Source: Escherichia coli | GTDB taxonomy: Bacteria > Pseudomonadota > Gammaproteobacteria > Enterobacterales > Enterobacteriaceae | DNA length: 64,000 bases | Assembly (NCBI RefSeq): GCF_048403405.1 | Contig: NZ_CP183129.1 | Reading direction: 5' to 3' (one strand) | Shown here: piece by piece, positions 1,835 through 42,358 of the stretch | Position numbering within the stretch: the first letter of the stretch is position 1 | How the letters are laid out: each line of letters begins with the position of its first letter | Made by a program: the position numbers and the translations under genes | The notes under the pieces: generated by a model | The model's database searches: none | What the model saw: the letters and a program-made list of their open reading frames with translations, nothing else | What the model was told of the DNA's origin: nothing

Positions 1835-3075
1835 TGAAAATAAAACAGGCTCTGTTCACCGCTGGCTACTCCTCATTCTATTTCGATGACCAGCAGGCGA
1901 TAAAAAACGGAGCGGGTCACGACGGTTTTTTTTATACCGGGGAGCCGGTAACACAGGGGTTTAACGCCGTTCGTCAGGCCGGGGAGTGCGTATCGGTACA
2001 GTTGATTCTGGAAAACGGCGCGGTCGCCGTAGGTGACTGTGCTGCCGTACAGTATTCCGGGGCAGGTGGTCGCGATCCACTGTTCCTCGCAGAGCACTTT
2101 ATTCCGTTCCTCAACGACCATATCAAGCCATTACTGGTAGGCCGCGATGTGGATGCTTTCCTGCCGAATGCCCGTTTCTTCGACAAATTGCGTATTGACG
2201 GCAACTTGCTGCATACCGCCGTGCGCTACGGATTATCACAGGCGCTGCTTGATGCTACCGCGCTGGCAACCGGCCGTCTGAAAACTGAAGTGGTCTGTGA
2301 TGAATGGCAGTTGCCACGCGTGGCGGAATCCATTCCATTATTTGGTCAGAGCGGCGACGATCGATATATCGCCGTCGATAAGATGATCCTTAAGGGCATC
2401 GACGTGCTGCCCCATGCGCTGATTAATAACGTCGAAGAGAAGCTGGGCTTTAAAGGTGAAAAACTGCGCGAATATGTCCGCTGGCTGTCGGATCGTATTC
2501 TGAGCAAGCGCACCAGCGCACGCTACCACCCTACCCTGCACATCGATGTATACGGCACTATCGGTCTGATCTTCGATATGGATCCGCTTCGCTGTGCGCA
2601 ATACATCGCCAGCCTGGAAAAAGAAGCGCAAGGCCTGCCGCTCTACATTGAAGGGCCGGTCGATGCTGGTAACAAGCCCGATCAAATTCGCCTGCTGACC
2701 GCGATTACCAAAGAGCTGACACGCCTCGGTTCCGGCGTGAAAATTGTGGCCGATGAATGGTGTAACACCTACCAGGATATTGTTGATTTCACAGATGCCG
2801 CCAGTTGCCACATGGTGCAAATCAAAACCCCGGATCTGGGCAGTATTCACAACATCGTCGATGCGGTTCTTTACTGCAACAGCCACAGCATGGAAGCGTA
2901 CCAGGGCGGCACCTGCAATGAAACTGATGTCAGTGCCCGCACCTGTGTCCACGTCGCCCTTGCCGCTCGCCCTATGCGTATGCTGGTAAAGCCAGGGATG
3001 GGCTTTGACGAAGGCCTCGATATCGTCTTCAACGAAATGAATCGTACTATCGCGCTGTTGCAGGCTAAGGATTAA
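1834..3075 (+). CDS. 3-methylaspartate ammonia-lyase (beta-methylaspartase)
   Basis: 413 aa, the expected size for methylaspartase (enolase superfamily); start ATG overlaps the glmE stop (TAATG at 1832-1836). Confidence 0.8.
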   Translation: MKIKQALFTAGYSSFYFDDQQAIKNGAGHDGFFYTGEPVTQGFNAVRQAGECVSVQLILENGAVAVGDCAAVQYSGAGGRDPLFLAEHFIPFLNDHIKPLLVGRDVDAFLPNARFFDKLRIDGNLLHTAVRYGLSQALLDATALATGRLKTEVVCDEWQLPRVAESIPLFGQSGDDRYIAVDKMILKGIDVLPHALINNVEEKLGFKGEKLREYVRWLSDRILSKRTSARYHPTLHIDVYGTIGLIFDMDPLRCAQYIASLEKEAQGLPLYIEGPVDAGNKPDQIRLLTAITKELTRLGSGVKIVADEWCNTYQDIVDFTDAASCHMVQIKTPDLGSIHNIVDAVLYCNSHSMEAYQGGTCNETDVSARTCVHVALAARPMRMLVKPGMGFDEGLDIVFNEMNRTIALLQAKD

Positions 3076-3078
3076 CAA

Positions 3079-4449
3079 ATGGCTCGTTCTTTTAAAGTCT
3101 TATCGCCAACGGCAATCCTCGGGTATGGATTCCCGGAAGAGAGCTTCCGTAAAGCGATGGCAGAATCGCCCGATCTGATCGCCGTTGATGCAGGCTCTTC
3201 CGATCCTGGCCCCCACTACCTCGGGGCGGGCAAACCGTTTACCGATCGCGCAGGGGTCAAGCGCGATCTGCGCTATATGATCACCGCAGGCGTGCAAAAT
3301 AATATACCGGTGGTGATCGGAACGGCTGGCGGTTCTGGTGCCGCACCACACCTGGAGTGGTGCCGAGAAATAATTCATGAGATTGCCCAGGAAGAGCACC
3401 TCTCGTTCTCAATGGCGCTGATCCCGGCAGACGTTGACAAAGCCATCGTCCACCAGGCGCTGGATAACGGCAAAATCACGGCGCTGGAGTTTGTCCCGCC
3501 GTTAACCCACGACGCGATTGACGAAAGTACGTATATCGTTGCGCAAATGGGCATCGAACCCTTCCAGCGGGCGCTGAAAGAAGGCGCGCAAGTGGTGCTG
3601 GGCGGGCGCGCTTACGACCCGGCCTGCTTTGCTGCGCTTCCGATCATGCAAGGCTTTGATGAAGGTCTGGCGCTGCATTGTGGGAAAATCCTTGAATGCG
3701 CGGCAATCGCCGCAACGCCCGGCTCAGGCTCTGACTGTGCGATGGGCATCATTGATGACAACGGCTTTACGCTGAAGACATTTAATCCGAAGCGTAAATT
3801 TACCGAAACGTCAGCGGCTGCACACACACTGTATGAGAAATCCGATCCCTACTTCCTGCCTGGACCTGGCGGCGTGTTGAACCTGAAAGGCTGCACATTT
3901 AAAGCGGTCAATGACAGCGAAGTGTACGTCAGCGGTTCTAAGCATGAAGAAACGCCGTATGCCCTGAAACTGGAAGGTGCGCGACGAGTGGGCTTCCGCT
4001 GTCTGACCATCGCAGGAACGCGCGACCCGATCATGATCGCCGGGATCGATAAAATCATCGATGAAGTCAAAACCAGCGTTTCGCGTAACCTGTCGCTCGA
4101 CGATGACAGCATTCGCATCAATTTCCACCTGTACGGCAAAAACGGGGTGATGGGAGACCATGAACCGATGCAAACTGCCGGGCATGAGCTGGGGATTGTC
4201 CTTGATGTAGTTGCACCGACCCAGGAAATTGCCAACAGCGTTTGCTCGCTGGTGCGCTCTACCATGCTGCACTACGGCTATGAAAACCGCATCGCTACCG
4301 CAGGTAATCTGGCGTTCCCGTTCTCCCCTTCTGATATCCAGGGCGGGCCGGTATACGAATTTTCCATATATCACCTGATTGAAGCCAACGACGCTCTGCG
4401 TTTTGATTTCCATATTGAACAGGTGACGCCAGAAGGAGTTCAGGCATGA
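3079..4449 (+). CDS. uncharacterised protein, AtuA/DUF1446-like family (function unknown)
   Basis: 456 aa ORF 3 nt after the methylaspartase stop; family assignment from memory of AtuA-like proteins, unverified. Confidence 0.55.
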   Translation: MARSFKVLSPTAILGYGFPEESFRKAMAESPDLIAVDAGSSDPGPHYLGAGKPFTDRAGVKRDLRYMITAGVQNNIPVVIGTAGGSGAAPHLEWCREIIHEIAQEEHLSFSMALIPADVDKAIVHQALDNGKITALEFVPPLTHDAIDESTYIVAQMGIEPFQRALKEGAQVVLGGRAYDPACFAALPIMQGFDEGLALHCGKILECAAIAATPGSGSDCAMGIIDDNGFTLKTFNPKRKFTETSAAAHTLYEKSDPYFLPGPGGVLNLKGCTFKAVNDSEVYVSGSKHEETPYALKLEGARRVGFRCLTIAGTRDPIMIAGIDKIIDEVKTSVSRNLSLDDDSIRINFHLYGKNGVMGDHEPMQTAGHELGIVLDVVAPTQEIANSVCSLVRSTMLHYGYENRIATAGNLAFPFSPSDIQGGPVYEFSIYHLIEANDALRFDFHIEQVTPEGVQA

Positions 4450-4763
4450 AACAGTCAATTGTCTCACTGGCGCAAGTCATTCGTTCGAAAAATGCCGGAC
4501 CTTACGAACTGGTTTTAGATATTTTATTTAAAACCAAAGAAAACTATGAGCGTGTCAAATCATCAGGGCAATTAACCCCAGAACTGATCGCGCGCTTATA
4601 TCATGTTGAACCTGACTTTATTCATCGTATTGTCTGGTTTGATCCTTCTAACGCAGTAAAAATCGTCATGCCACGAGATATTATCTCCGGGAATGTAGGT
4701 GACAATGATGTCTATGGTGCACAGCAACATGCACCTTTATTAAATATGAGTTTCGATTTGTAA
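4446..4763 (+). CDS. small uncharacterised protein, DUF4387-like partner of AtuA-like proteins
   Basis: 105 aa ORF; start ATG overlaps the upstream stop (ATGA at 4446-4449), indicating translational coupling. Confidence 0.5.
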   Translation: MKQSIVSLAQVIRSKNAGPYELVLDILFKTKENYERVKSSGQLTPELIARLYHVEPDFIHRIVWFDPSNAVKIVMPRDIISGNVGDNDVYGAQQHAPLLNMSFDL

Positions 4764-4923
4764 AAATCCGAATACTTTTAGCCAACTGACATCCCGTCAC
4801 TTATTGCAGTTCAACACTTCAGCTATTTGTAAGGTTGTAATAGCAGGTAGATGCCTGAATCTCTATTCGGGCATCTACTTCTCCTGATTCTGATTTATCG
4901 CCGTGCACCTGATGGAGGAAAAA

Positions 4924-6204
4924 ATGAAGAAAATAAGTTTAACCACGATGATTCTTTTGGCGCTGGTACTTGGAATGATTATCGGCGTAGTGCTCAATAA
5001 CACTGCTTCACCGGAAACCGAAAAACTCTATGCGCAAGAAATATCGATATTCACGACGATTTTCTTACGACTGATAAAAATGATTATCGCTCCGTTAGTG
5101 GTCTCTACCCTGGTGGTAGGTATAGCTAAAATGGGCGATGCCAAAGCCCTTGGTCGTATTTTTTCTAAAACACTCTTTTTATTTATTTGCGCCTCATTGC
5201 TGTCAATTGCCTTAGGCTTGATAACAGTAAATTTCTTCATGCCAGGCACAGGAATTAATTTTGTTGCACACGGAGCCGAAACCACCGGAGTGGTCGCGTC
5301 AGAACCCTTTACGCTAAAAGTATTTATTTCGCATGCTTTCCCCACCAGCATTGTCGATGCCATGGCGCACAATGAAATTTTGCAAATCGTGGTGTTCTCA
5401 ATTTTCCTCGGCTGTAGCCTGACGGCGATTGGCGAGAAAGGCAGCGCCATCGTTCACGCCTTAGATTCGCTGGCACATGCCATGTTAAAGCTCACTGGCT
5501 ACGTCATGCTCTTCGCTCCCCTGACCGTATTCGCTGCTATTTCAGCATTGATTGCTGAACGAGGACTGGCAGTTATGGTGAGCGCCGGGATCTTTATGGG
5601 TGAATTTTATTTCACCATGTTATTACTTTGGGTGCTGCTTATCGGTCTGGCCATCGTTTATGTTGGCCCCTGCATCAGACGCCTGACCCGCGCCCTTTCG
5701 GAACCCGCCCTGCTGGCATTTACCACATCCAGTTCTGAAGCGGCTTTTCCGGGAACGCTTGAAAAACTGGAGCAATTTGGCGTTTCCCCCAAAATTGCCA
5801 GCTTTGTCTTACCCATTGGCTACTCATTTAATCTTGTTGGATCAATGGCCTACTGCTCCTTCGCCACAGTTTTCATCGCCCAGGCCTGCAATATCCATTT
5901 ATCCATCGGTGAGCAAATCACCATGCTGTTGATCCTGATGTTGACCTCGAAAGGAATGGCTGGCGTACCACGCGCCTCAATGGTGGTTATCGCCGCCACG
6001 CTCAACCAGTTCAATATTCCGGAAGCGGGGCTGATCTTGCTGATGGGCGTTGATCCGTTCCTTGATATGGGGCGTTCCGCGACAAACGTCATGAGCAACG
6101 CAATGGGCGCTGCGATGGTGAGTCGGTGGGAAGGCGAACATTTCGGCGAGGGTTGTCGGGGTAAAGCATTAAAACCCAATGAATCGAACGTTGCTCTGCC
6201 CTGA
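4924..6204 (+). CDS. sodium:dicarboxylate symporter family transporter (glutamate/aspartate or C4/C5-dicarboxylate:cation symporter-like)
   Basis: About 426 aa, highly hydrophobic multi-helix protein; GGAGG 5 nt upstream of the ATG at 4924 (longest ORF begins at 4903). Confidence 0.75.
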   Translation: MKKISLTTMILLALVLGMIIGVVLNNTASPETEKLYAQEISIFTTIFLRLIKMIIAPLVVSTLVVGIAKMGDAKALGRIFSKTLFLFICASLLSIALGLITVNFFMPGTGINFVAHGAETTGVVASEPFTLKVFISHAFPTSIVDAMAHNEILQIVVFSIFLGCSLTAIGEKGSAIVHALDSLAHAMLKLTGYVMLFAPLTVFAAISALIAERGLAVMVSAGIFMGEFYFTMLLLWVLLIGLAIVYVGPCIRRLTRALSEPALLAFTTSSSEAAFPGTLEKLEQFGVSPKIASFVLPIGYSFNLVGSMAYCSFATVFIAQACNIHLSIGEQITMLLILMLTSKGMAGVPRASMVVIAATLNQFNIPEAGLILLMGVDPFLDMGRSATNVMSNAMGAAMVSRWEGEHFGEGCRGKALKPNESNVALP

Positions 6205-6311
6205 GGGGGATCTTAAGCAATCAGAAGCCAATGACTACGCATTTTTATAAGCCGGATCATGAAGTTAGACGGCAATTAAGTAAAACTAACGTTTAAGGTG
6301 AAAAGTGAAAT

Positions 6312-7964
6312 ATGTCCAAACCATTTATCTGGCAAGAACCGTTTCTACAAAATAAAGACGGTACAGAATATACATTAATTAGCGATCAACATATTACAGT
6401 AACGGAATTAGACGGCGAAGAAGTAATAAAAATCGCTCCTGAAGCATTAACGCTGCTTGCCCGGCAGGCATTTTATGAAGCCTCTTTTTTCTTACGTTCC
6501 GCTCATTTGCAACAGGTCGCCAGCATTCTTAACGATCCGCAGGCCAGTAGTAATGATAAATACGTTGCGTTGCAGTTATTACGTAATGCTGAAGTCTCAG
6601 CAAAAGGGGTATTACCCAACTGTCAGGATACCGGCACCGCAACTATTGTTGCCAGTAAAGGGCAACAGATATGGACGGGAGGTAACGACGCTGAAGCCTT
6701 AAGCAAAGGCATTTACAGTACTTTCCAGGAAAATAACCTGCGCTTTTCACAAAATGCGCCGCTGGATATGTACACCGAAGTCAATACGCAAACCAATCTC
6801 CCGGCGCAGATTGATATCAGCGCTGTCGCTGGTGATGAGTACCATTTTCTCTGTATTAATAAAGGGGGCGGCTCTGCCAATAAAGCCGCGCTTTATCAGG
6901 AAACCAAATCCTTATTGCAACCAGAAAAACTGACCGCATTTTTAATCGAAAAAATGAAATCGCTGGGCACCGCTGCCTGCCCGCCTTACCACATCGCCTT
7001 TGTCGTCGGAGGGCTTTCAGCCGATCAAACCTTAAAAGTTGCCAAGCTGGCCTCAACGAAATATTACGACAATTTGCCCACCAGCGGAAACGAGCAAGGA
7101 CAAGCATTCCGTGATATTGAGCTGGAAAAAGTATTGCTCGAGGCCAGTCAGCAATTTGGTATTGGTGCGCAATTTGGAGGTAAATATTTCGCTCATGATA
7201 TTCGCGTCATTCGTCTGCCGCGTCACGGTGGCTCCTGCCCGATAGCTATGGCGCTCTCCTGTTCTGCCGATCGCAATATCAAAGCAAAAATTAACAAGCA
7301 CGGTATCTGGCTGGAAAAACTCGAACACAATCCGGGGCAATATATTCCAGCCTCACTGCGGGAAGAAAATCACGCGCAACATGTACAACTGGATCTAAAC
7401 CGTCCGTTGCGTGACGTGATGCAGGATCTCGCCAGATTACCGGTAGGCACCCGCGTGTCGTTAAGTGGTCCCATCGTAGTGGCACGCGATATCGCCCACG
7501 CCAAAATAAAAGCGCGGCTGGATAACGCCGAACCGATGCCGGATTACCTGAAGCATCATATTGTCTATTACGCTGGCCCGGCGAAAACACCGGAGAACAT
7601 GGCCTGCGGTTCACTGGGTCCAACCACGGGCGGTCGAATGGACGGTTATGTCGATACCTTCCAGGCGGCTGGCGGCAGTCTGGTGATGTTATCGAAAGGT
7701 AACCGCAGCCAGCAGGTCACCGATGCCTGTCACAAACATGGTGGCTTCAATCTGGGTAGTATTGGCGGTGCAGCTGCGTTACTGGCGCAAGAATATGTCA
7801 AAAGTCTGCGTTGCCTGGAATACCCGGAGCTGGGTATGGAAGCGGTGTGGATGATGGAAGTGGAAAATCTGCCCGCATTCATCCTGGTAGATGATAAAGG
7901 CAATAATTTCTTTAGTCAGTTTGAGCAGCAACACCGCTGCGCCAGTTGCCCTGCGGGACATTAA
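6312..7964 (+). CDS. fumD: class I fumarate hydratase family protein, probable mesaconase/fumarase (FumD-like)
   Basis: 550 aa, FumA/FumB-like length; C-terminal Cys-rich tail; located in the methylaspartate operon. Confidence 0.75.
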
Positions 7965-36057: not shown

Positions 36058-36906
36058 TTAATCCTGTTGTAGCAGGACAAGATTACGAAAGCGCGCTCCC
36101 CGCAAGGACTGACGCCAGATAGTTTCTGTCCATGGCTGCCCTTTCCATTCAAACGTGAAATCAATAAGTTCATCAGGGACACCGCAAACAATATGAAGAC
36201 GGATTTCTTCTCTGCCGTGACTCTTTTCACTCATTGCGAAACTGTCATGCTCTGGATTATTTAATTCTTTCAGTGGGAATTTTTCCTCAAAGGCTTTATT
36301 AAGCCGTCCCTGATTTCCTTTTACAGCGAATAAATAATCACCGCCCTGTTTTTGTATCTTCTCTGCGATATCTTTCTGGCAACCCATCGCATCAGTTGTG
36401 ATAATTTTTCCTTTAATATCCAACATGTTAAGAAGTTCAGGGATAGCTGTGATCTCATTGGATTTCTCATCCGTCCTGATCTGTCCGATGACCAGACTGT
36501 GCATTGTTGAGAACGCACTAATGACATGAATCGCTCCCCTGCGGCGACTCTTGTCATAAGAATGCCGGAGCGTTTTTCCATCAATTGCAATAACGTCTTT
36601 ATCATCTGAAGAATGGCAGTCACGCATCCAGTTAATAAAGCACTCGTGAAATTTTGCAGGACTGATACAGGATACAACTCTGGCAATGGTATCGTGAACA
36701 GGAATACCATTTTCAAAATCACCATATTGCTTCAAAAAATCGAGATGTGTTTCCCCAAAATCCTCTATATCTTCCCAGCCTTCTGCACCAGAAATAACGG
36801 CACAAATAGTCAACAGTAGAATATCCGACAATTTATGTTCCACTTTCCAGGCTTGTCTGTAATCGGGGATAATAGAAATATGTTCCATCAATTTTTTAAG
36901 TTCCAT
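36058..36906 (-). mobile_element. ybfD: H-repeat-associated (ISAs1-family) transposase gene, 3'-truncated remnant
   Basis: 282 aa ORF with N-terminus [51 protein letters not shown] typical of H-rpt proteins; homology ends after ...FTFEWKG, then an unrelated short tail (full-length proteins are about 378 aa as recalled). Confidence 0.8.
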
Positions 36907-37013: not shown

Positions 37014-37593
37014 TTAGTACAAAAAGTGTACTTCTGATGATCTTTCCCTGTCCTTGGCACCATCATTTTTTGACGCTTCAAAAATACTACTACAAGTGAG
37101 TTTAGAAAACTCTTTTCCAGATAATTCTCCAGGTTGTAATCCTCCGCCGCCAAAAATCCTACTCCCAGGATTTCCATACCTATTTAGAGCATATGAATAG
37201 CAATTATTTACGGCAAGATAATACGCATCTGAATTTAGTTCTCGATTGAATACTGGAGCAGGTTTATCAATTAAGCCCAGCGGATCAATAGAATAGGTTG
37301 GATGTATGGAAGCATATACATACTGATTCCACCCGCCTTCCAGCCCAATCGGTTCCTGAGTGATATACCGCCCCTGCAGCGGGTCATAATAGCGGTGGCG
37401 GTTGTAATACAGGCCGGACTCCTCATCATACTGCTGCCCCGGCAGACGGATAAGCTGCTGCAGGTGCTGCGGGTTCTCTTCAGTCAGCAGGTTGCCCCAT
37501 TCATCATATTCTGCGCACCATTCTGTTGCCCCGTCAGGGCTGATAAGCGTCAGCGGCAGGCCGCGATAGTCGCAGTGGTAGAGGTGGATTATT
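37014..37593 (-). pseudogene. orphan rhs core-end plus alternative C-terminal toxin (CT) fragment, no start codon
   Basis: Minus-strand translation gives ...[12 protein letters not shown]...[46 protein letters not shown] then a unique tail ending ...SSEVHFLY, stop at 37014-37016; 37340-37600 is a near-identical DNA repeat of 38690-38950 inside the main rhs gene. Confidence 0.75.
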
Positions 37594-37623
37594 CGCAGTG
37601 GTAGAGGTGGATTATTCGCAGTG
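37571..37623. repeat. 23-bp tandem direct repeat (2 copies plus a partial third) at the 5' edge of the orphan rhs fragment
   Basis: CGCAGTGGTAGAGGTGGATTATT at 37571-37593 and 37594-37616, then CGCAGTG. Confidence 0.9.
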
Positions 37624-37706
37624 ATCTATATGCCAACGTCATCTTATTTTTCATCTACTCCAACGAGTAGACAAGTTTTTTATTAAACCATTTATACCTT
37701 TTACGA

Positions 37707-38210
37707 TTAAATTTTCTTATGTAATAGAGGTGAATAATCTTCCCAAAAATCCATACAAGCTTTACTTGCATAAAAGAATCCAGCGTCTGATTCATAAGAC
37801 ATAAACTGTGCAATAATAGATAGTTGTATATCTGAAAAATTAAAAACAAAATTCAAAAAATCATCGTGATCCCGATACTCAGGACATAAATATTGTTGAA
37901 TAAAATCGGATTCAAAAACCCAAAAATCATTCTTATTAAACAACGAGGCATAAATATACAGAGGGATGTAATAGCAGAATACTTTCTCAGGGAGGAATGT
38001 AATTCCTAACTCTAAAGCATAAGAGTCATCCTTTATTTTAAAATTGTTGGCTATTTCATTCCATTGTTTCTTTTGGAAAAAATTATATACAATATCCAGT
38101 TCCTCCAGCCCTGTAATATCATTTGAAATATGAGGTAATGGCTGGCATGGGAAATGAATCATAAGTTCATCATAGACTGCACTCTCGTTAGAGAAAATTA
38201 TTTTTTTCAT
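37707..38210 (-). CDS. candidate Rhs immunity protein (RhsI-like), cognate to the main Rhs toxin tip
   Basis: 167 aa from [16 protein letters not shown]; its ATG overlaps the rhs stop (ATGA at 38207-38210); low-GC, no signal peptide; position directly 3' of the toxin gene. Confidence 0.6.
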
Positions 38211-41200
38211 TTTATTAAGCCACTGCAATCAGCTGCTGTTTTATATGCTTTATTCTCTTCTTCCATATGGGCCTTATCTCCACCACCAAAGCACTGATTA
38301 TTAATCTGCTTTCTGACCGAAGCGCACGCCAAATTTATCTCGTACCGTCTCAATATTTCTTTTCTCAGCATCTGAGGAGCGCAAGCTCTAGACTGGTTAC
38401 ATAATCTGTTTTTTTCATTTTGTAAGTCACTCAGGTTCTGGGGACTACAGTTACCACCAGGATTTACACCTGACTTATGTTCATCTGTTAATTTGTCGGC
38501 TTCTGGATTAACTTTACGGCCATATTGATCTCTGCGTTGTTGCCCACTTTGGATAACACCACCTGATGAAAATAAACCGCAACTCATCAGTGCTACAACA
38601 CTAAGAATTAACGGATTTAACCCTTGTGGGTCTATCTCTGAGATCGGATTTAACGGATACTGATAAAAATTCCATCCCCCCTTAAGCCCAATCGGATCCT
38701 GAGTGATATACCGCCCCTGCAGCGGGTCATAATAGCGGTGGCGGTTGTAATACAGGCCGGACTCCTCATCATACTGCTGACCCGGCAGGCGGATGAGCTG
38801 CTGCAGCTGATGCGGGTTCTCTTCATTCAGCAGGTTGCCCCATTCATCGTATTCTGCGTACCACGCTGTTGTCCCTTCCGTGCTGACAAGCGCCAGCGGC
38901 AGGCCGCGATGGTCGCAGTGGTACAGGTGGATTTTTCGCGCCGGCGTGTACACCGGGTCCATCTGGTTTTGCATCTGCTCCACCGTCAGGCCGCACGATG
39001 CCAGCCAGCGGCGGCTTTCCTCGCTCACCCGGTCAGTAAGGATTTCACTTTCCAGCCGGTCGAGCATCTGCACCAGCACCGGCGGGAACACCACTCTGCC
39101 ACCGTCTTCGCCGCCGGACTGCTGAAGGGCATCCGCCAGGCTGCGGCGCTGCGTTTTCGCCAGCTCACCGGTGGCGGTTTCAACTCTGATGAGTGGCGTG
39201 AAGCTCCCCGGCTGATAAACCGTCTGGATGCGGGTTCTGTCGTTCTGTATTGTGGTCAGCCGGTCGCCGTCCCAGCCGTACCAGGTCACTTCCGGTTTCC
39301 GTGACAGCGACATCCAGCCCGTCAGGTCCCGTTCACGCCGCCATACCCGTTTTGCCACCCTGCGGCCCAGCGGGTCGTAAAGATAGCGACTTTCGACCAG
39401 CGGCTCTGCATATTGTGTCCGCGTGTAGTGCACCAGCCGGTGCCGGCTGTCGTAATGATACCGGTGAGTCCGCTCATCATCCGTGCGGATAACCCCTTCC
39501 GGGATGAGGTCGGTTTTCTCTGTCAGCCTGCCGTGACGGTCATACCGGTAAAGATAGTGCGCGTCACGGGCGATACGGTTATCCGGCCACATGCTGAGGG
39601 TGCTGTCCGGGTGCAGCTCCGGGTCGGGCAGGCGGTTGCCTGCCGGGTCCGTGGCATACGGGATGCGGATATCCAGATTCGCTGCGGTGGTGTGGACGCC
39701 GGTCAGCCTGCCGGTGTCGCTGTAGCTGTAACTCCGGGTCTGGCGCGGGCTGCTGATGCGGATGAGTTCGCCGTTGTCGTTCCAGGTGTAATCGCGGTCA
39801 TACTGCAGGCTGTTCAGGTGCTGGCTCTGTAACTGCCCGGCAGAGGTGTAAGCGGTGGTGAGTTCATAACGGCCGAAGCTGCGCAGCGTTTCCCGGTGCA
39901 GGCGGTCGCGGGTGAAATCCACCAGCGGTGTGTCGCCGAGTTTCATGCCTGACAGCCAGCCGCTGCCGTAGGTCAGCCATTCCACGGCGGGCAGGCTGTC
40001 CGGTATACAGCGGTTCGCCAGTCCCTGCGCGTTGTACGCATGTCTGGTTTCATGCTGCCAGAGCAGTGCTTCCGTCTGCGGGTGATGCACCGTCTGGCGC
40101 TCACCGGTCAGGCGGCCTTTCTCATCATACCCGTAATGCACCGTCACCCGGTGGCCTTCGCTGAGATGGCTGATGCCTGTCAGCCAGCCGCGTTCGTCAT
40201 ACTGCCACTGCTCTGCAGGTTCACCCTTCACGGTGCGGTGAGTGAGGCGGTCTGCTTCGTCATAGTGCCAGTGGGTGACCAGCCCCTCATCCTCGCTGCG
40301 GATAAGTTTACCGGTCAGGTCGTGGTGATAACGCTGTGTGCGGCCGTCAAAGCCGGTTTCCTGTATCAGCCGGTCAAGTACATCGTAACGGAAGGTGGTG
40401 TGGCTGCCGTTTTCACTGGTCAGGCGGATGACCCGCCCGGCAGCATCGTATTCCATACTGCGCGTCAGACCGCCCTGCGTGGTACGAACGGGCTTTCCCC
40501 ACGCATCGTACTGTGTCCCGTTTCTGCTGCCGTCCGGGGCAATGACGGCGGTCAGGTCACCGGCGGCGTTGTATTCATACCGCGTTTCATGGCCCTGCGT
40601 GTCTTTCACCGCAATTAACTGTCCACGGCTGTCGTATGCGCGGTACTGACTCAGCCCTTCCTCGCGGTGCACCGCCGTCACCTGACCAAAACGGTCATGG
40701 TCATAACGGGTTACATAACCGGAACAGTCAGTGACGGTCAGCAACTGACCGTAACGGCTCCATGTCATGGTTTTCCGGCTGCCGGTGGCATCTTCCGTTG
40801 CGCAGGGTAAGTCACTGTGTGGATTATCATAACGGTAGCGGGTGATATCGCCGTTGTGTGCGGTTTCCTGAATCAGACGGCCGGATTCATCATATTTGCG
40901 GCGCAACTCCAGCCCGTCAGTCCCGGTGGCTGACGTTAACTGGTTGTGGTGGTTATAGTAAAATGCCGATGCCCTGCCATCCGGTGTGGTGATGCGCGTG
41001 ATGAGTCCCGTCACCACATCCGGGCTGTACTCAGTCGTCCGGCCTGCGGCATCCGTCTGTGCCTTAAGCCCGCCCACCGCGTCAAACTGACTCTGCGTGA
41101 CGCTGCCGTCCGCGTGTTCCTTTTTCACCACCCGCTTCAGCCCGCCTTCGCCCTGCGTGTGCAGCACTTCACGGCGGTCCAGACTGTCGGTGATGGTGAT

Positions 41201-42358
41201 GCGGTCTTTCTCATACTGATACGTGTAGCTTAAGCCTGCCGGGTTTAGCTGTTCTGTCACCCGCCCGTCGCTGTCGTAACGGTAACGGATATCCGGCCGG
41301 CCCGTGTGACGGTGCGCCACCATCCGGCCCCGGTATTTATCATCGTAAGTAAAGCTGCGCACCTGTGTATTGCTGCGGTCATACACCGCCGCCAGTTCGC
41401 CGCGTGGCGTCCAGCCATAGCGCACCAGCGGCGCGGCAGGTAAATTCTCCGGGTATTCCGGGTCGTGCGTCAGCCACACGGCAGACAGACGGATGCCGTT
41501 GTCCCGGCCATATTCGGTGTAACCCGGCAGGGTATCAGGAAAAACGGACGGTTCCGTCCCGCCGGAAATGGCCTGCTGCCGGGCTTCTTCTGCCCGCTGC
41601 GCCTGCGTGGTCAGTACCAGCCGGAAGTGACGCCCGGCACCATCCGTCACGCCGGTGATTTCGCCGCTGAATTCGCCGCCAGCCTCACGGTGAAACGTCT
41701 GTGTGCGCCCGAAGCGGTCCACCAGCCCGGTCAGTACCCGGTACGGCGGCAGCGGCGCGGGCAGCACCTCATCCGCCTCCGGCACCCGCTCACACCAGCC
41801 GAGTACCCACCACGGCCCCTGCGGACTGTTTGTCGCCAGATAACGATGCGGACTCAGGCGAAGCTCTTCCGGCAGCGCCTGCCAGAGTGCGGCCAGCCGG
41901 TGACCTTCATCCAGTTTCGCCACGCCGCCGCGCACCAGCCAGAGTGACTCGCTGCGGCTGTAACCGTCCTCACCGGGAAACAGGTGCTCAAAATACAGGC
42001 TTCTGCCGCCGTTATCACTGAGTGTCAGTGTGTTATCGCGCAGCTGTAAGCGGATATCCGCAGGCATTTTCCAGCCGGGGCCGAGGCTCCCCACCGGCGC
42101 GGGCGTTTTTGTCCGGTAACTGCTGTAGGTGCGGGAGAGGATGAACGGCAGCGGGCCGGGCAGGGCAAGGTCGGTTTCGCCGGGAAGGACCTTCGCACCG
42201 AGCAGCGGATTGACCGGATGGCCGGACGTCACCCCGCCGGGGCACACCGAACAGGCCACGCCGGTGGGGGCACCAATACGTACCCCGGCTGAACCCTGAA
42301 CAATGCTACCGCCATACTGCGTCATGTCGCCCTGACGCGCCGCCGGTTTTCCGCTCAT
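38207..42358 (-). CDS. rhsC: Rhs-family polymorphic toxin (YD-repeat protein with variable C-terminal toxin domain)
   Basis: 1383 aa; N-terminus [34 protein letters not shown]; many YD repeats; conserved core end ...[17 protein letters not shown]...DPQGL followed by a unique Cys-rich tail; symbol from synteny with ybfA-kdp. Confidence 0.85.

What the first reader, a model, noticed from the sequence alone, without database searches (positions are those of the whole stretch)
37707..38210. Translationally coupled candidate immunity gene directly 3' of the Rhs toxin
Seen in sequence: a 167-aa ORF on the same strand whose start codon overlaps the rhs stop codon (ATGA at 38207-38210); it is low-GC and has no signal peptide. 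Established knowledge: Rhs toxin genes are normally followed by a cognate immunity gene. Inference: this is the RhsI partner protecting against the Cys-rich toxin tip.
Basis: partly seen in the sequence, partly recalled or inferred. Interest (0 to 1): 0.5.

Follow-up and report, generated by a model that had tools for sequence, protein, structure and literature searches.

The report
Immunity gene for an Ntox16 Rhs toxin
This small gene is very probably the antidote that protects E. coli from its own Rhs toxin; the arrangement is ordinary, but it links a protein family of unknown function (DUF6714) to a toxin type (Ntox16) that had no known antidote.

Summary
A 167-codon ORF lies on the minus strand (38210 to 37707). 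Its ATG overlaps the rhs TGA as ATGA (38210-38207). Its GC is 0.30 against 0.62 for the rhs core, and it has no signal-peptide-like or transmembrane segment.

It is a real gene. It would stay open by chance with P of about 2e-6, and dN/dS against the Citrobacter ortholog is 0.10. It is identical in 243 of 5426 complete E. coli genomes, where it is annotated only as "hypothetical protein".

The Rhs tip is a Pfam Ntox16 domain (E 1e-12). The ORF product is a weak DUF6714 match. The AlphaFold model is confident, all-helical and acidic, and has no solved relative.

In about nine distinct lineages, every Ntox16-type tip I found is followed on the same strand by a DUF6714-type gene. These span Enterobacteriaceae, Betaproteobacteria and a methanotroph. 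The pair occurs behind full Rhs proteins, orphan Rhs fragments and small non-Rhs proteins. Tip and partner divergence track each other. Family members also occur in a polyimmunity array and fused to ankyrin repeats.

The immunity reading is well supported by comparative genomics, but protection and binding are untested. This is an ordinary Rhs toxin-immunity module. The modest new element is the DUF6714-Ntox16 pairing, which the 2012 polymorphic-toxin catalogue left blank.

The parts
37707..38210 (-). Candidate immunity gene: 167 aa plus stop, a DUF6714-type all-helical acidic cytoplasmic protein (RefSeq WP_000720081.1, 'hypothetical protein').
   Evidence: ORF and translation. Pfam DUF6714: E 3.9e-5; 15 of 20 family members hit at E<=1e-3. 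dN/dS 0.10 and pI 4.5. AlphaFold2 pLDDT 90.8 with 11 helices. RefSeq annotation.
38207..38210 (-). ATGA overlap of the rhs stop codon (TGA) and the immunity start codon (ATG).
   Evidence: The same 4-nt overlap occurs in Citrobacter, Salmonella and L015-17 and in L024.
38207..42358 (-). Full-length rhs gene (1383 aa) at the kdp-ybfA / ybgA-phr locus (the rhsC position in E. coli). The N-terminus carries DUF6531 and a sub-threshold PAAR motif.
38618..38632 (-). DPQGL motif that ends the conserved Rhs core. The variable toxin tip and the drop in GC begin here.
   Evidence: Sequence. GC profile.
38549..38617 (-). Hydrophobic stretch [23 protein letters not shown] at the start of the tip. AlphaFold confidence is low here and its function is unknown.
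38219..38458 (-). Ntox16 toxin domain (Pfam PF15523), a three-helix domain with six conserved Cys, a conserved Arg and a GGD-x-x-H motif.
   Evidence: Pfam E 9.9e-13, model positions 2-84 of 85. Conserved columns. AlphaFold2 residues 60-141 with pLDDT 78-97 per 10-residue block.
37654..37671 (.). Palindromic hairpin 36 nt after the immunity stop codon. The T-run lies on the + strand side only.
37014..37622 (-). Downstream orphan rhs fragment: core end IHLYHCD...DPLGL plus a different, short tip. No immunity ORF follows before the ISAs1 element.

Best explanation
The ORF encodes the cognate immunity protein (RhsI) of the Ntox16-type toxin domain at the C-terminus of this E. coli Rhs protein.

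Shown here: it is a real gene under purifying selection. It is transcribed in the same direction as rhs, with no recognisable promoter of its own. Its start codon overlaps the rhs stop codon. Its relatives invariably sit directly after Ntox16-type toxin domains, whatever protein carries the toxin.

Inferred: it is co-transcribed with rhs and translated by ribosomes terminating at the rhs stop (ATGA re-initiation), because no conserved Shine-Dalgarno sequence precedes it. The acidic (pI 4.5), cytoplasmic, helical-repeat protein binds the basic (pI 8.8) toxin domain one-to-one and blocks its active surface. This would protect the producer and its sibling cells that receive the toxin.

Because the immunity protein has no export signal, the toxin's target is probably cytoplasmic. 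Zhang et al. 2012 predicted Ntox16 to be a metal-independent RNase. That activity is untested.
For: The gene is real. P(open by chance) is 1.7e-6 and 0 of 5000 shuffles reach its length. dN/dS is 0.10 against Citrobacter, and 0.2-0.4 against homologs at 38-40% identity, where synonymous sites are near saturation. It is identical in 243 of 5426 complete E. coli genomes.

The tip is Ntox16 (E 9.9e-13). The tip and the ORF occur in the same number of E. coli genomes, 243 each.

A systematic HMM scan covered the 29 fetched loci plus the window region (30 sources). Every tip hit is followed on the same strand by a DUF6714-type hit, usually overlapping or abutting it, apart from a 65-70 nt gap in L018/L019 and an IS21 insertion in L025. 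DUF6714-type hits without a tip occur only in a three-gene polyimmunity array (L011), behind an RHS-repeat protein with an unrecognised tip (L020), and as an ankyrin fusion (L023).

The pair is found behind full Rhs proteins (window, L003), N-terminally truncated orphan Rhs fragments (L006, L008, L003 second module), and small non-Rhs proteins (L014 193 aa, L024 187 aa). It therefore tracks the toxin domain and not the delivery part. The same cassette sits at different chromosomal loci in Citrobacter (L002 versus L003).

Loci fetched by the toxin sequence alone also have the partner downstream.

Tip and partner divergence correlate: Spearman 0.82 over 21 pairs, not corrected for phylogeny.

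There is no sigma-70-like promoter on the minus strand between 38210 and 38900. The ATGA overlap is conserved. No signal peptide or transmembrane segment is present, and the pI values are 4.5 and 8.8.

The immunity gene is kept intact in a genome where IS21 split it from a frameshifted rhs.
Against: There is no experimental evidence for protection or binding, and I found no paper on this pair.

The Pfam DUF6714 match of the E. coli protein itself is weak and partial (E 3.9e-5, residues 67-158).

The E. coli co-occurrence (243 and 243) is essentially clonal, at >=99% identity, so it counts as one observation.

Many fetched loci are redundant. The independent lineages number about nine, and the HMMs used were built partly from those same loci.

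The two remotest toxin partners (Methylovulum, Amantichitinum) are only sub-threshold to Pfam Ntox16 (E 0.044). They do hit my own tip profile.

Six conserved cysteines in the toxin would suit a disulfide-stabilised periplasmic protein, which fits poorly with a cytoplasmic immunity protein.

The structure searches gave no specific relative for either protein, so the neutralisation mechanism is inferred only.
Confidence: 0.85

Rival explanations
1. The ORF product is an accessory factor for the toxin rather than an immunity protein. It could be a chaperone, an adaptor, or a stabiliser needed for folding or loading of the Ntox16 tip, like Eag/DUF1795 or Tap/Tec adaptors of T6SS effectors.
For: It is tightly linked and probably co-translated with the toxin. 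It has a helical-repeat fold of the kind often used for protein binding.
Against: Known Rhs chaperones and adaptors are encoded upstream and follow the N-terminal delivery region. This gene follows the C-terminal toxin domain, even in orphan fragments and small non-Rhs proteins. Family members occur in a toxin-less three-gene array and fused to ankyrin repeats, which is typical of immunity genes according to Zhang et al. 2012. There is no Pfam or NCBIfam hit to any chaperone family.
Confidence: 0.05
2. The pair works mainly as an intracellular toxin-antitoxin module, with the toxin expressed from internal starts and the ORF acting as antitoxin that regulates growth or persistence. This was reported for Salmonella Typhimurium RHS elements. 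On this view it is not primarily protection in inter-bacterial competition.
For: A published precedent exists for Rhs/orphan modules acting as type II TA-like modules (PMC7043789, listed; I read the abstract only). No vgrG or T6SS gene lies next to this rhs. The PAAR match is sub-threshold.
Against: The molecular role of the ORF, neutralising the toxin, would be the same, so this differs only in physiological setting. The full-length Rhs with DUF6531 and a complete shell indicates a delivered toxin.
Confidence: 0.05
3. The ORF product neutralises the toxin enzymatically, by reversing or pre-empting its modification of the target, and not by binding the toxin.
For: The toxin's activity is unknown. 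Enzymatic immunity proteins exist, for example the ADP-ribosyl glycohydrolase immunity listed by Zhang et al..
Against: The family alignment has no conserved catalytic-looking polar residues. The invariant or near-invariant positions are M1, F20, F45, P83, Y85, P110, Q129 and W156. The immunity protein diverges faster than the toxin (75% versus 94%, 38% versus 72% identity), as expected for a binding partner. The fold resembles helical-repeat scaffolds only.
Confidence: 0.04
4. The ORF is a non-functional hitch-hiker or an annotation artefact in AT-rich DNA.
For: It is annotated only as 'hypothetical protein'. There is no strong Shine-Dalgarno sequence and no own promoter.
Against: The open length is highly improbable by chance. 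dN/dS is 0.10. Homologs are conserved down to 24-40% identity across proteobacterial classes. The AlphaFold2 model is confident, with pLDDT 90.8.
Confidence: 0.01

Closest known systems
Rhs toxin / RhsI immunity pairs (for example Dickeya dadantii RhsA-RhsIA and RhsB-RhsIB, and Salmonella Rhs main and orphan modules; from my own knowledge of Koskiniemi et al. 2013/2014 and from PMC7043789)
   Same: The variable low-GC tip begins after the DPxGL core end. A small gene follows immediately downstream on the same strand. An orphan core-end plus tip module lies further downstream. The cassette moves between rhs loci.
   Different: The toxin type (Ntox16) and the immunity family (DUF6714) are different, and none of the characterised pairs uses them. 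Nothing has been tested experimentally here.
Pfam DUF6714 (PF20461), a family of unknown function
   Same: The ORF product and its relatives match this model. The window protein hits at E 3.9e-5, the best member at 2.7e-14, and 15 of 20 members at <=1e-3. NCBI names the 59%-identical Salmonella homolog 'DUF6714 family protein'.
   Different: The Enterobacteriaceae subfamily is at the edge of the model, and only the C-terminal 55% of the E. coli protein aligns. The family carries no functional annotation. This analysis supplies one: immunity to Ntox16.
Ntox16 (PF15523), in the polymorphic-toxin catalogue of Zhang et al. 2012 (PMC3482391)
   Same: The tip matches over the full model. It shows the alpha-helical prediction, the conserved Arg and the [DNE]xxH motif (here D-K-A-H), and it is associated with RHS repeats.
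   Different: The catalogue lists no immunity protein for Ntox16 ('-'), and its predicted metal-independent RNase activity is untested. Here a consistent partner family is identified.
Acidic protein inhibitors of basic nuclease toxins (colicin E3-Im3, barnase-barstar, CdiA-CT/CdiI pairs; from my own knowledge)
   Same: A small acidic cytoplasmic protein (pI 4.5) is encoded right after a basic toxin domain (pI 8.8). It is probably co-translated with the toxin and diverges faster than the toxin does.

Membership tests
Polymorphic-toxin (Rhs) immunity protein | The gene lies immediately 3' of the toxin-encoding tip, on the same strand, in one operon. | tested here: met
   There is a 4-nt ATGA overlap with the rhs stop codon. 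No promoter-like site lies between them.
Polymorphic-toxin (Rhs) immunity protein | It co-occurs with one toxin-domain type independently of the delivery part of the toxin protein. | tested here: met
   Every Ntox16-type tip in the 30 sources scanned is followed by a DUF6714-type ORF. This holds behind full Rhs proteins, orphan fragments and small non-Rhs proteins, in about nine lineages.
Polymorphic-toxin (Rhs) immunity protein | The tip plus immunity gene form a compositionally distinct, exchangeable cassette. | tested here: met
   GC is 0.30 (ORF) and 0.41 (tip) against 0.62 (core). The same cassette occurs at different chromosomal loci in Citrobacter and E. coli.
Polymorphic-toxin (Rhs) immunity protein | Family members also occur as orphan immunity genes, in polyimmunity arrays, or fused to other immunity domains. 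| tested here: met
   L011 has three consecutive DUF6714-type genes after an unrelated toxin-immunity pair. Ankyrin-DUF6714 fusions exist: P0083 and P0085.
Polymorphic-toxin (Rhs) immunity protein | It binds the cognate toxin domain and protects cells from it. | not testable with these tools
   This needs co-expression rescue, pull-down and competition assays. I found no literature on the pair.
Pfam DUF6714 (PF20461) | A significant match to the family profile. | tested here: met
   The window protein hits at E 3.9e-5, score 24.1, residues 67-158 on model positions 65-159 of 161. Of its aligned relatives, 15 of 20 hit at E<=1e-3 and 20 of 20 at <=0.1. The match is weak and partial, so membership rests partly on transitive homology.
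Ntox16 (PF15523) - the partner toxin | A profile match, plus the alpha-helical domain with a conserved R and the [DNE]xxH motif. | tested here: met
   E 9.9e-13 over model positions 2-84 of 85. R107 and D119-x-x-H122 are conserved. The model has three confident helices.
Known immunity superfamilies (SUKH/SMI1-KNR4, SuFu, numbered Imm families in Pfam) and known defence proteins | A profile or structural match. | tested here: not met
Translationally coupled gene pair | The stop and start codons overlap, and translation of the downstream gene depends on translation of the upstream gene. | tested here: inconclusive
   The ATGA overlap is present and conserved in diverged lineages, and no strong Shine-Dalgarno sequence is visible. 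Dependence on upstream translation can only be shown experimentally.

The most novel reading that the evidence does not exclude
Ntox16 and DUF6714 form a previously unrecognised, widely distributed toxin-immunity family pair. The toxin is a roughly 80-residue three-helix domain with six conserved cysteines and a GGDxxH motif. On this reading it acts by a mechanism other than the predicted RNase activity, for example a metal- or disulfide-dependent activity on a cytoplasmic target, and a helical-repeat immunity protein of a fold not yet seen among solved immunity proteins blocks it.
Probability: 0.3. Interest if true: 0.5.

Novelty: new member of a known kind. Interest (0 to 1): 0.3.

Why it matters
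The architecture is textbook Rhs biology, so the system itself teaches nothing new. The useful outcome is an annotation. A gene called "hypothetical protein" in 243 complete E. coli genomes, and the Pfam family DUF6714 more broadly, can be read as the immunity partner of Ntox16 toxins. The reference catalogue of polymorphic toxins listed no immunity protein for that toxin type. This gives experimenters a ready pair for finding out what Ntox16 does. It also helps predict which strains resist which Rhs toxins. Both proteins lack solved structural relatives, so a structure of the complex would be new.

Tried and rejected
- NCBIfam and PADLOC scans of both the ORF product and the tip gave no hits.
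- PDB sequence searches with the protein and with the family profile found nothing.
- Foldseek against PDB with the confident immunity model found nothing below E 1.
- The genome-contig scan with the tip alignment returned only 2 loci because the peptide patterns were narrow. The viral-contig scan returned none. A tblastn search of plasmids returned none.
- Literature searches for Ntox16, DUF6714, the Pfam accessions and the RefSeq protein ids found only the 2012 catalogue and one unrelated preprint. The EHEC rhsC in-silico paper concerns a different tip.
- P0033 (an LRR protein) and P0026 (a frameshifted pseudogene in a degraded genome) were dropped as a false or uninformative hit.
- Two of my calls failed because I gave a wrong reading frame for the tip. 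I repeated them with the correct frame (then 11, 12).
- I considered a chaperone or adaptor role and a spurious ORF, and rejected both (see the rival explanations).

Full report

Yes. The ORF lies on the minus strand, like the rhs gene. It runs from 38210 down to 37707 and encodes 167 aa plus a stop ([10 protein letters not shown]...LLHKKI).

On that strand the junction reads ...GGCTTAATAAAATGAAAAAA.... The ATG (38210-38208) shares two bases with the rhs TGA (38209-38207), so the ATGA at 38207-38210 is correct. rhs itself is 42358->38207 and encodes 1383 aa.

GC is 0.304 for the ORF, 0.408 for the toxin tip, 0.621 for the rhs core and 0.519 for the whole window. With this composition, 167 open codons have a chance probability of 1.7e-6. 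None of 5000 shuffles gave an open frame that long; the maximum was 133 codons.

A hydropathy scan shows no signal-peptide-like N-terminus and no transmembrane segment. This is a heuristic, since no dedicated signal-peptide predictor was available.

**2. Where is it, and is it a real gene?**

The locus is the E. coli kdp-ybfA ... ybgA-phr-dtpD region, which is the rhsC position. RefSeq annotates the ORF as WP_000720081.1, "hypothetical protein", right after an "RHS element core protein".

The ORF is present at >=99% identity in 243 of 5426 complete E. coli genomes. It is always chromosomal and never on plasmids. The tip DNA is found in the same number of genomes, 243. Because these copies are nearly identical, that counts as one evolutionary observation.

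Homologs at 53-82% identity occur in Citrobacter, Enterobacter, Salmonella and Lelliottia. A search of 1.8 billion representative proteins found only 17 related clusters, so the close subfamily is small.

dN/dS against the Citrobacter ortholog is 0.10, with synonymous sites close to saturation. That is clear purifying selection on the protein.

**3. What are the two proteins?**

*The toxin tip.* The 149 C-terminal residues of the Rhs protein match Pfam Ntox16 (PF15523) at E 9.9e-13 over almost the full model.

In an alignment of diverse tips the following positions are invariant or nearly so: six cysteines, an arginine (R107 in alignment numbering) and a G-G-D-x-x-H motif. This matches the "R, [DNE]xxH" signature given by Zhang et al. 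2012.

*The ORF product.* It matches Pfam DUF6714 (PF20461) weakly (E 3.9e-5, residues 67-158). In my 20-sequence family alignment, 15 members match at E<=1e-3 and all 20 at <=0.1. NCBI names the Salmonella homolog "DUF6714 family protein".

The AlphaFold2 model is confident (pLDDT 90.8, pTM 0.89) and consists of 11 helices.

- Foldseek found no PDB relative below E 1.
- Sequence searches of the PDB, NCBIfam and PADLOC were empty.

The protein is acidic (pI 4.5) and the toxin domain is basic (pI 8.8).

**4. Does the gene accompany this toxin type elsewhere?**

I ran it in both directions.

*Starting from the ORF product.*

- In Citrobacter (L002-L005) and Salmonella (L006-L009), homologs sit directly after an Ntox16 tip with the same ATGA overlap.
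- A metagenomic homolog at only 38% identity (L015-L017) does the same.
- L014 has a 14-nt overlap with a 193-aa non-Rhs Ntox16 protein.
- L012 and L013 have a frameshifted Ntox16 upstream.
- Remoter DUF6714 members in Methylovulum (L021/L022) and Amantichitinum (L024) follow small proteins whose C-termini hit my tip profile (E about 1e-8 to 1e-11). Against Pfam Ntox16, the only partner tested, the Methylovulum one (L022), is sub-threshold (E 0.044).

*Starting from the toxin.*

- The two loci recovered from representative genomes (Amantichitinum L018, Silvimonas L019) have a DUF6714-type ORF downstream. The Silvimonas copy is frameshifted.
- A 75-aa Ntox16 remnant in Salmonella orphan arrays (L026-L029) is followed by a 176-aa DUF6714-type ORF with a 14-nt overlap.
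- Citrobacter L003 carries a second orphan module. Its Ntox16 tip is 42% identical to ours, and a 174-aa partner 27% identical to ours abuts it. That second type also occurs in six E. coli genomes.

*Systematic scan.* I scanned the 29 fetched loci plus the window region (30 sources) with profiles of both proteins.

- Every tip hit is followed on the same strand by a partner hit.
- Partner hits without a tip occur in only three places:
  - a three-gene array in L011, behind an unrelated glycine-rich toxin and its small membrane immunity protein;
  - L020, behind an RHS-repeat protein whose tip is not recognised;
  - L023, an ankyrin-repeat fusion.

*What this amounts to.* After removing redundancy there are about nine distinct lineages of pairs, spanning Enterobacteriaceae, Betaproteobacteria and a methanotroph.

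The partner follows the toxin domain behind full Rhs proteins, truncated orphan fragments and small non-Rhs proteins. It also moves with the tip between chromosomal loci: L002 versus L003 in Citrobacter, and a different locus again in E. coli.

Pairwise identities of tips and partners correlate (Spearman 0.82 over 21 pairs). The partner diverges faster: 75% versus 94% identity, and 38% versus 72%. This correlation is not corrected for shared ancestry.

*Caveat.* The profiles used were built partly from the loci they were scanned against. The independent cases are those fetched by the tip alone, plus the remote members not included in the tip profile.

**5. How does it most likely work?**

*Shown:* the gene order, the strand, the overlap, the absence of a recognisable promoter on the minus strand between 38210 and 38900, conservation of the ATGA overlap in diverged lineages, the absence of an export signal, and the strict association with the toxin domain.

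*Inferred:*

- The ORF is co-transcribed with rhs and translated by termination-reinitiation at ATGA. No strong Shine-Dalgarno sequence is visible upstream.
- The acidic helical-repeat protein binds the basic toxin domain stoichiometrically and occludes its active face.
- Because the immunity protein is cytoplasmic, the toxin's target is probably cytoplasmic too.

Zhang et al. 2012 place Ntox16 among "predicted metal-independent RNase toxins" and list no immunity protein for it. The RNase activity is a prediction only.

The six conserved cysteines are unexplained. They could be disulfides or metal ligands. If they are disulfides, that would sit awkwardly with a cytoplasmic site of action.

In one E. 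coli genome an IS21 element separates a frameshifted rhs from an intact copy of the ORF. This is compatible with retention of immunity after loss of the toxin, but it is a single case.

**6. Rival explanations**

- *Chaperone or adaptor.* This is unlikely. Such genes track the N-terminal delivery region and lie upstream. This gene tracks the C-terminal toxin domain and also appears in toxin-less arrays and fusions.
- *TA-like intracellular role, as reported for Salmonella RHS elements* (PMC7043789). This would not change the molecular function.
- *Enzymatic immunity.* This is disfavoured. The family has no conserved catalytic-type residues and diverges faster than the toxin.
- *Spurious ORF.* This is excluded.

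**7. Comparison with what is known, and novelty**

This is a standard Rhs toxin-immunity cassette, followed by a standard orphan module. The kind of system is long known.

What is not in the sources I could search is the assignment itself. RefSeq calls the protein hypothetical. Pfam calls the family DUF6714. The 2012 catalogue leaves the immunity column for Ntox16 empty. No paper in the library mentions DUF6714, and only the catalogue mentions Ntox16.

I therefore rate it a new member of a known kind, with modest interest (0.3). Experimental proof of protection and binding is still missing.

Noticed in passing
window 37570-37623: A perfect 23-bp tandem repeat (2.3 copies, unit TCGCAGTGGTAGAGGTGGATTAT on the + strand) sits exactly at the 5' edge of the downstream orphan rhs fragment. 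It duplicates the codons for ...IHLYHC... of the Rhs core end. It may be a scar of the recombination that stacked the orphan module.
   Followed up: partly
window 37014-37622 (minus strand): An orphan rhs fragment has a different, short tip after DPLGL ([33 protein letters not shown]...). The tip has no Pfam match. No immunity-sized ORF follows before the ISAs1 element about 100 bp downstream, so this orphan toxin appears to have lost its partner or been truncated.
   Followed up: partly
window 36058-36906 (minus strand): An ISAs1-family (H-repeat, ybfD-like) transposase ORF lies directly after the orphan module. RefSeq marks the equivalent gene as a pseudogene with an internal stop.
   Followed up: no
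window 38549-38617 (minus strand): A hydrophobic 23-residue stretch ([23 protein letters not shown]) lies immediately after the DPQGL core end, at the N-terminus of the released toxin. It is hydrophobic or glycine-rich in several Ntox16 tips (L006, L015, L014) but is replaced by a proline-rich linker in others (L003 second module, L018). It may play a role in membrane crossing; its function is unknown.
   Followed up: no
L025 (NZ_AP022069.1), locus 4877-7576: In one E. coli genome an IS21-family element (ISSso4, istA/istB) is inserted at the 3' end of the toxin tip. The rhs gene is frameshifted, but the immunity gene is left intact and identical.
   Followed up: partly
L011 1-2600: This metagenomic contig has a glycine-zipper-like toxin C-terminus and a 78-aa membrane protein, followed by three consecutive diverged DUF6714-type genes. 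It is a polyimmunity array with no Ntox16 gene in the part of the contig I read.
   Followed up: partly
L010 (GCA_025847655.1), 1836-6507: The same kdp-ybfA-rhs locus occurs in a genome where rhs, the Ntox16 tip, the immunity gene and neighbouring genes (kdpA, phr, dtpD) are all broken into fragments. This looks like a genome undergoing wholesale gene decay.
   Followed up: no
L026-L029 (Salmonella enterica): These are long orphan arrays behind an Rhs protein with a DUF6973 tip. They include an Ntox16 remnant with its DUF6714-type gene, a TseH-type orphan with Imm58, and a SymE-like toxin gene on the opposite strand.
   Followed up: no
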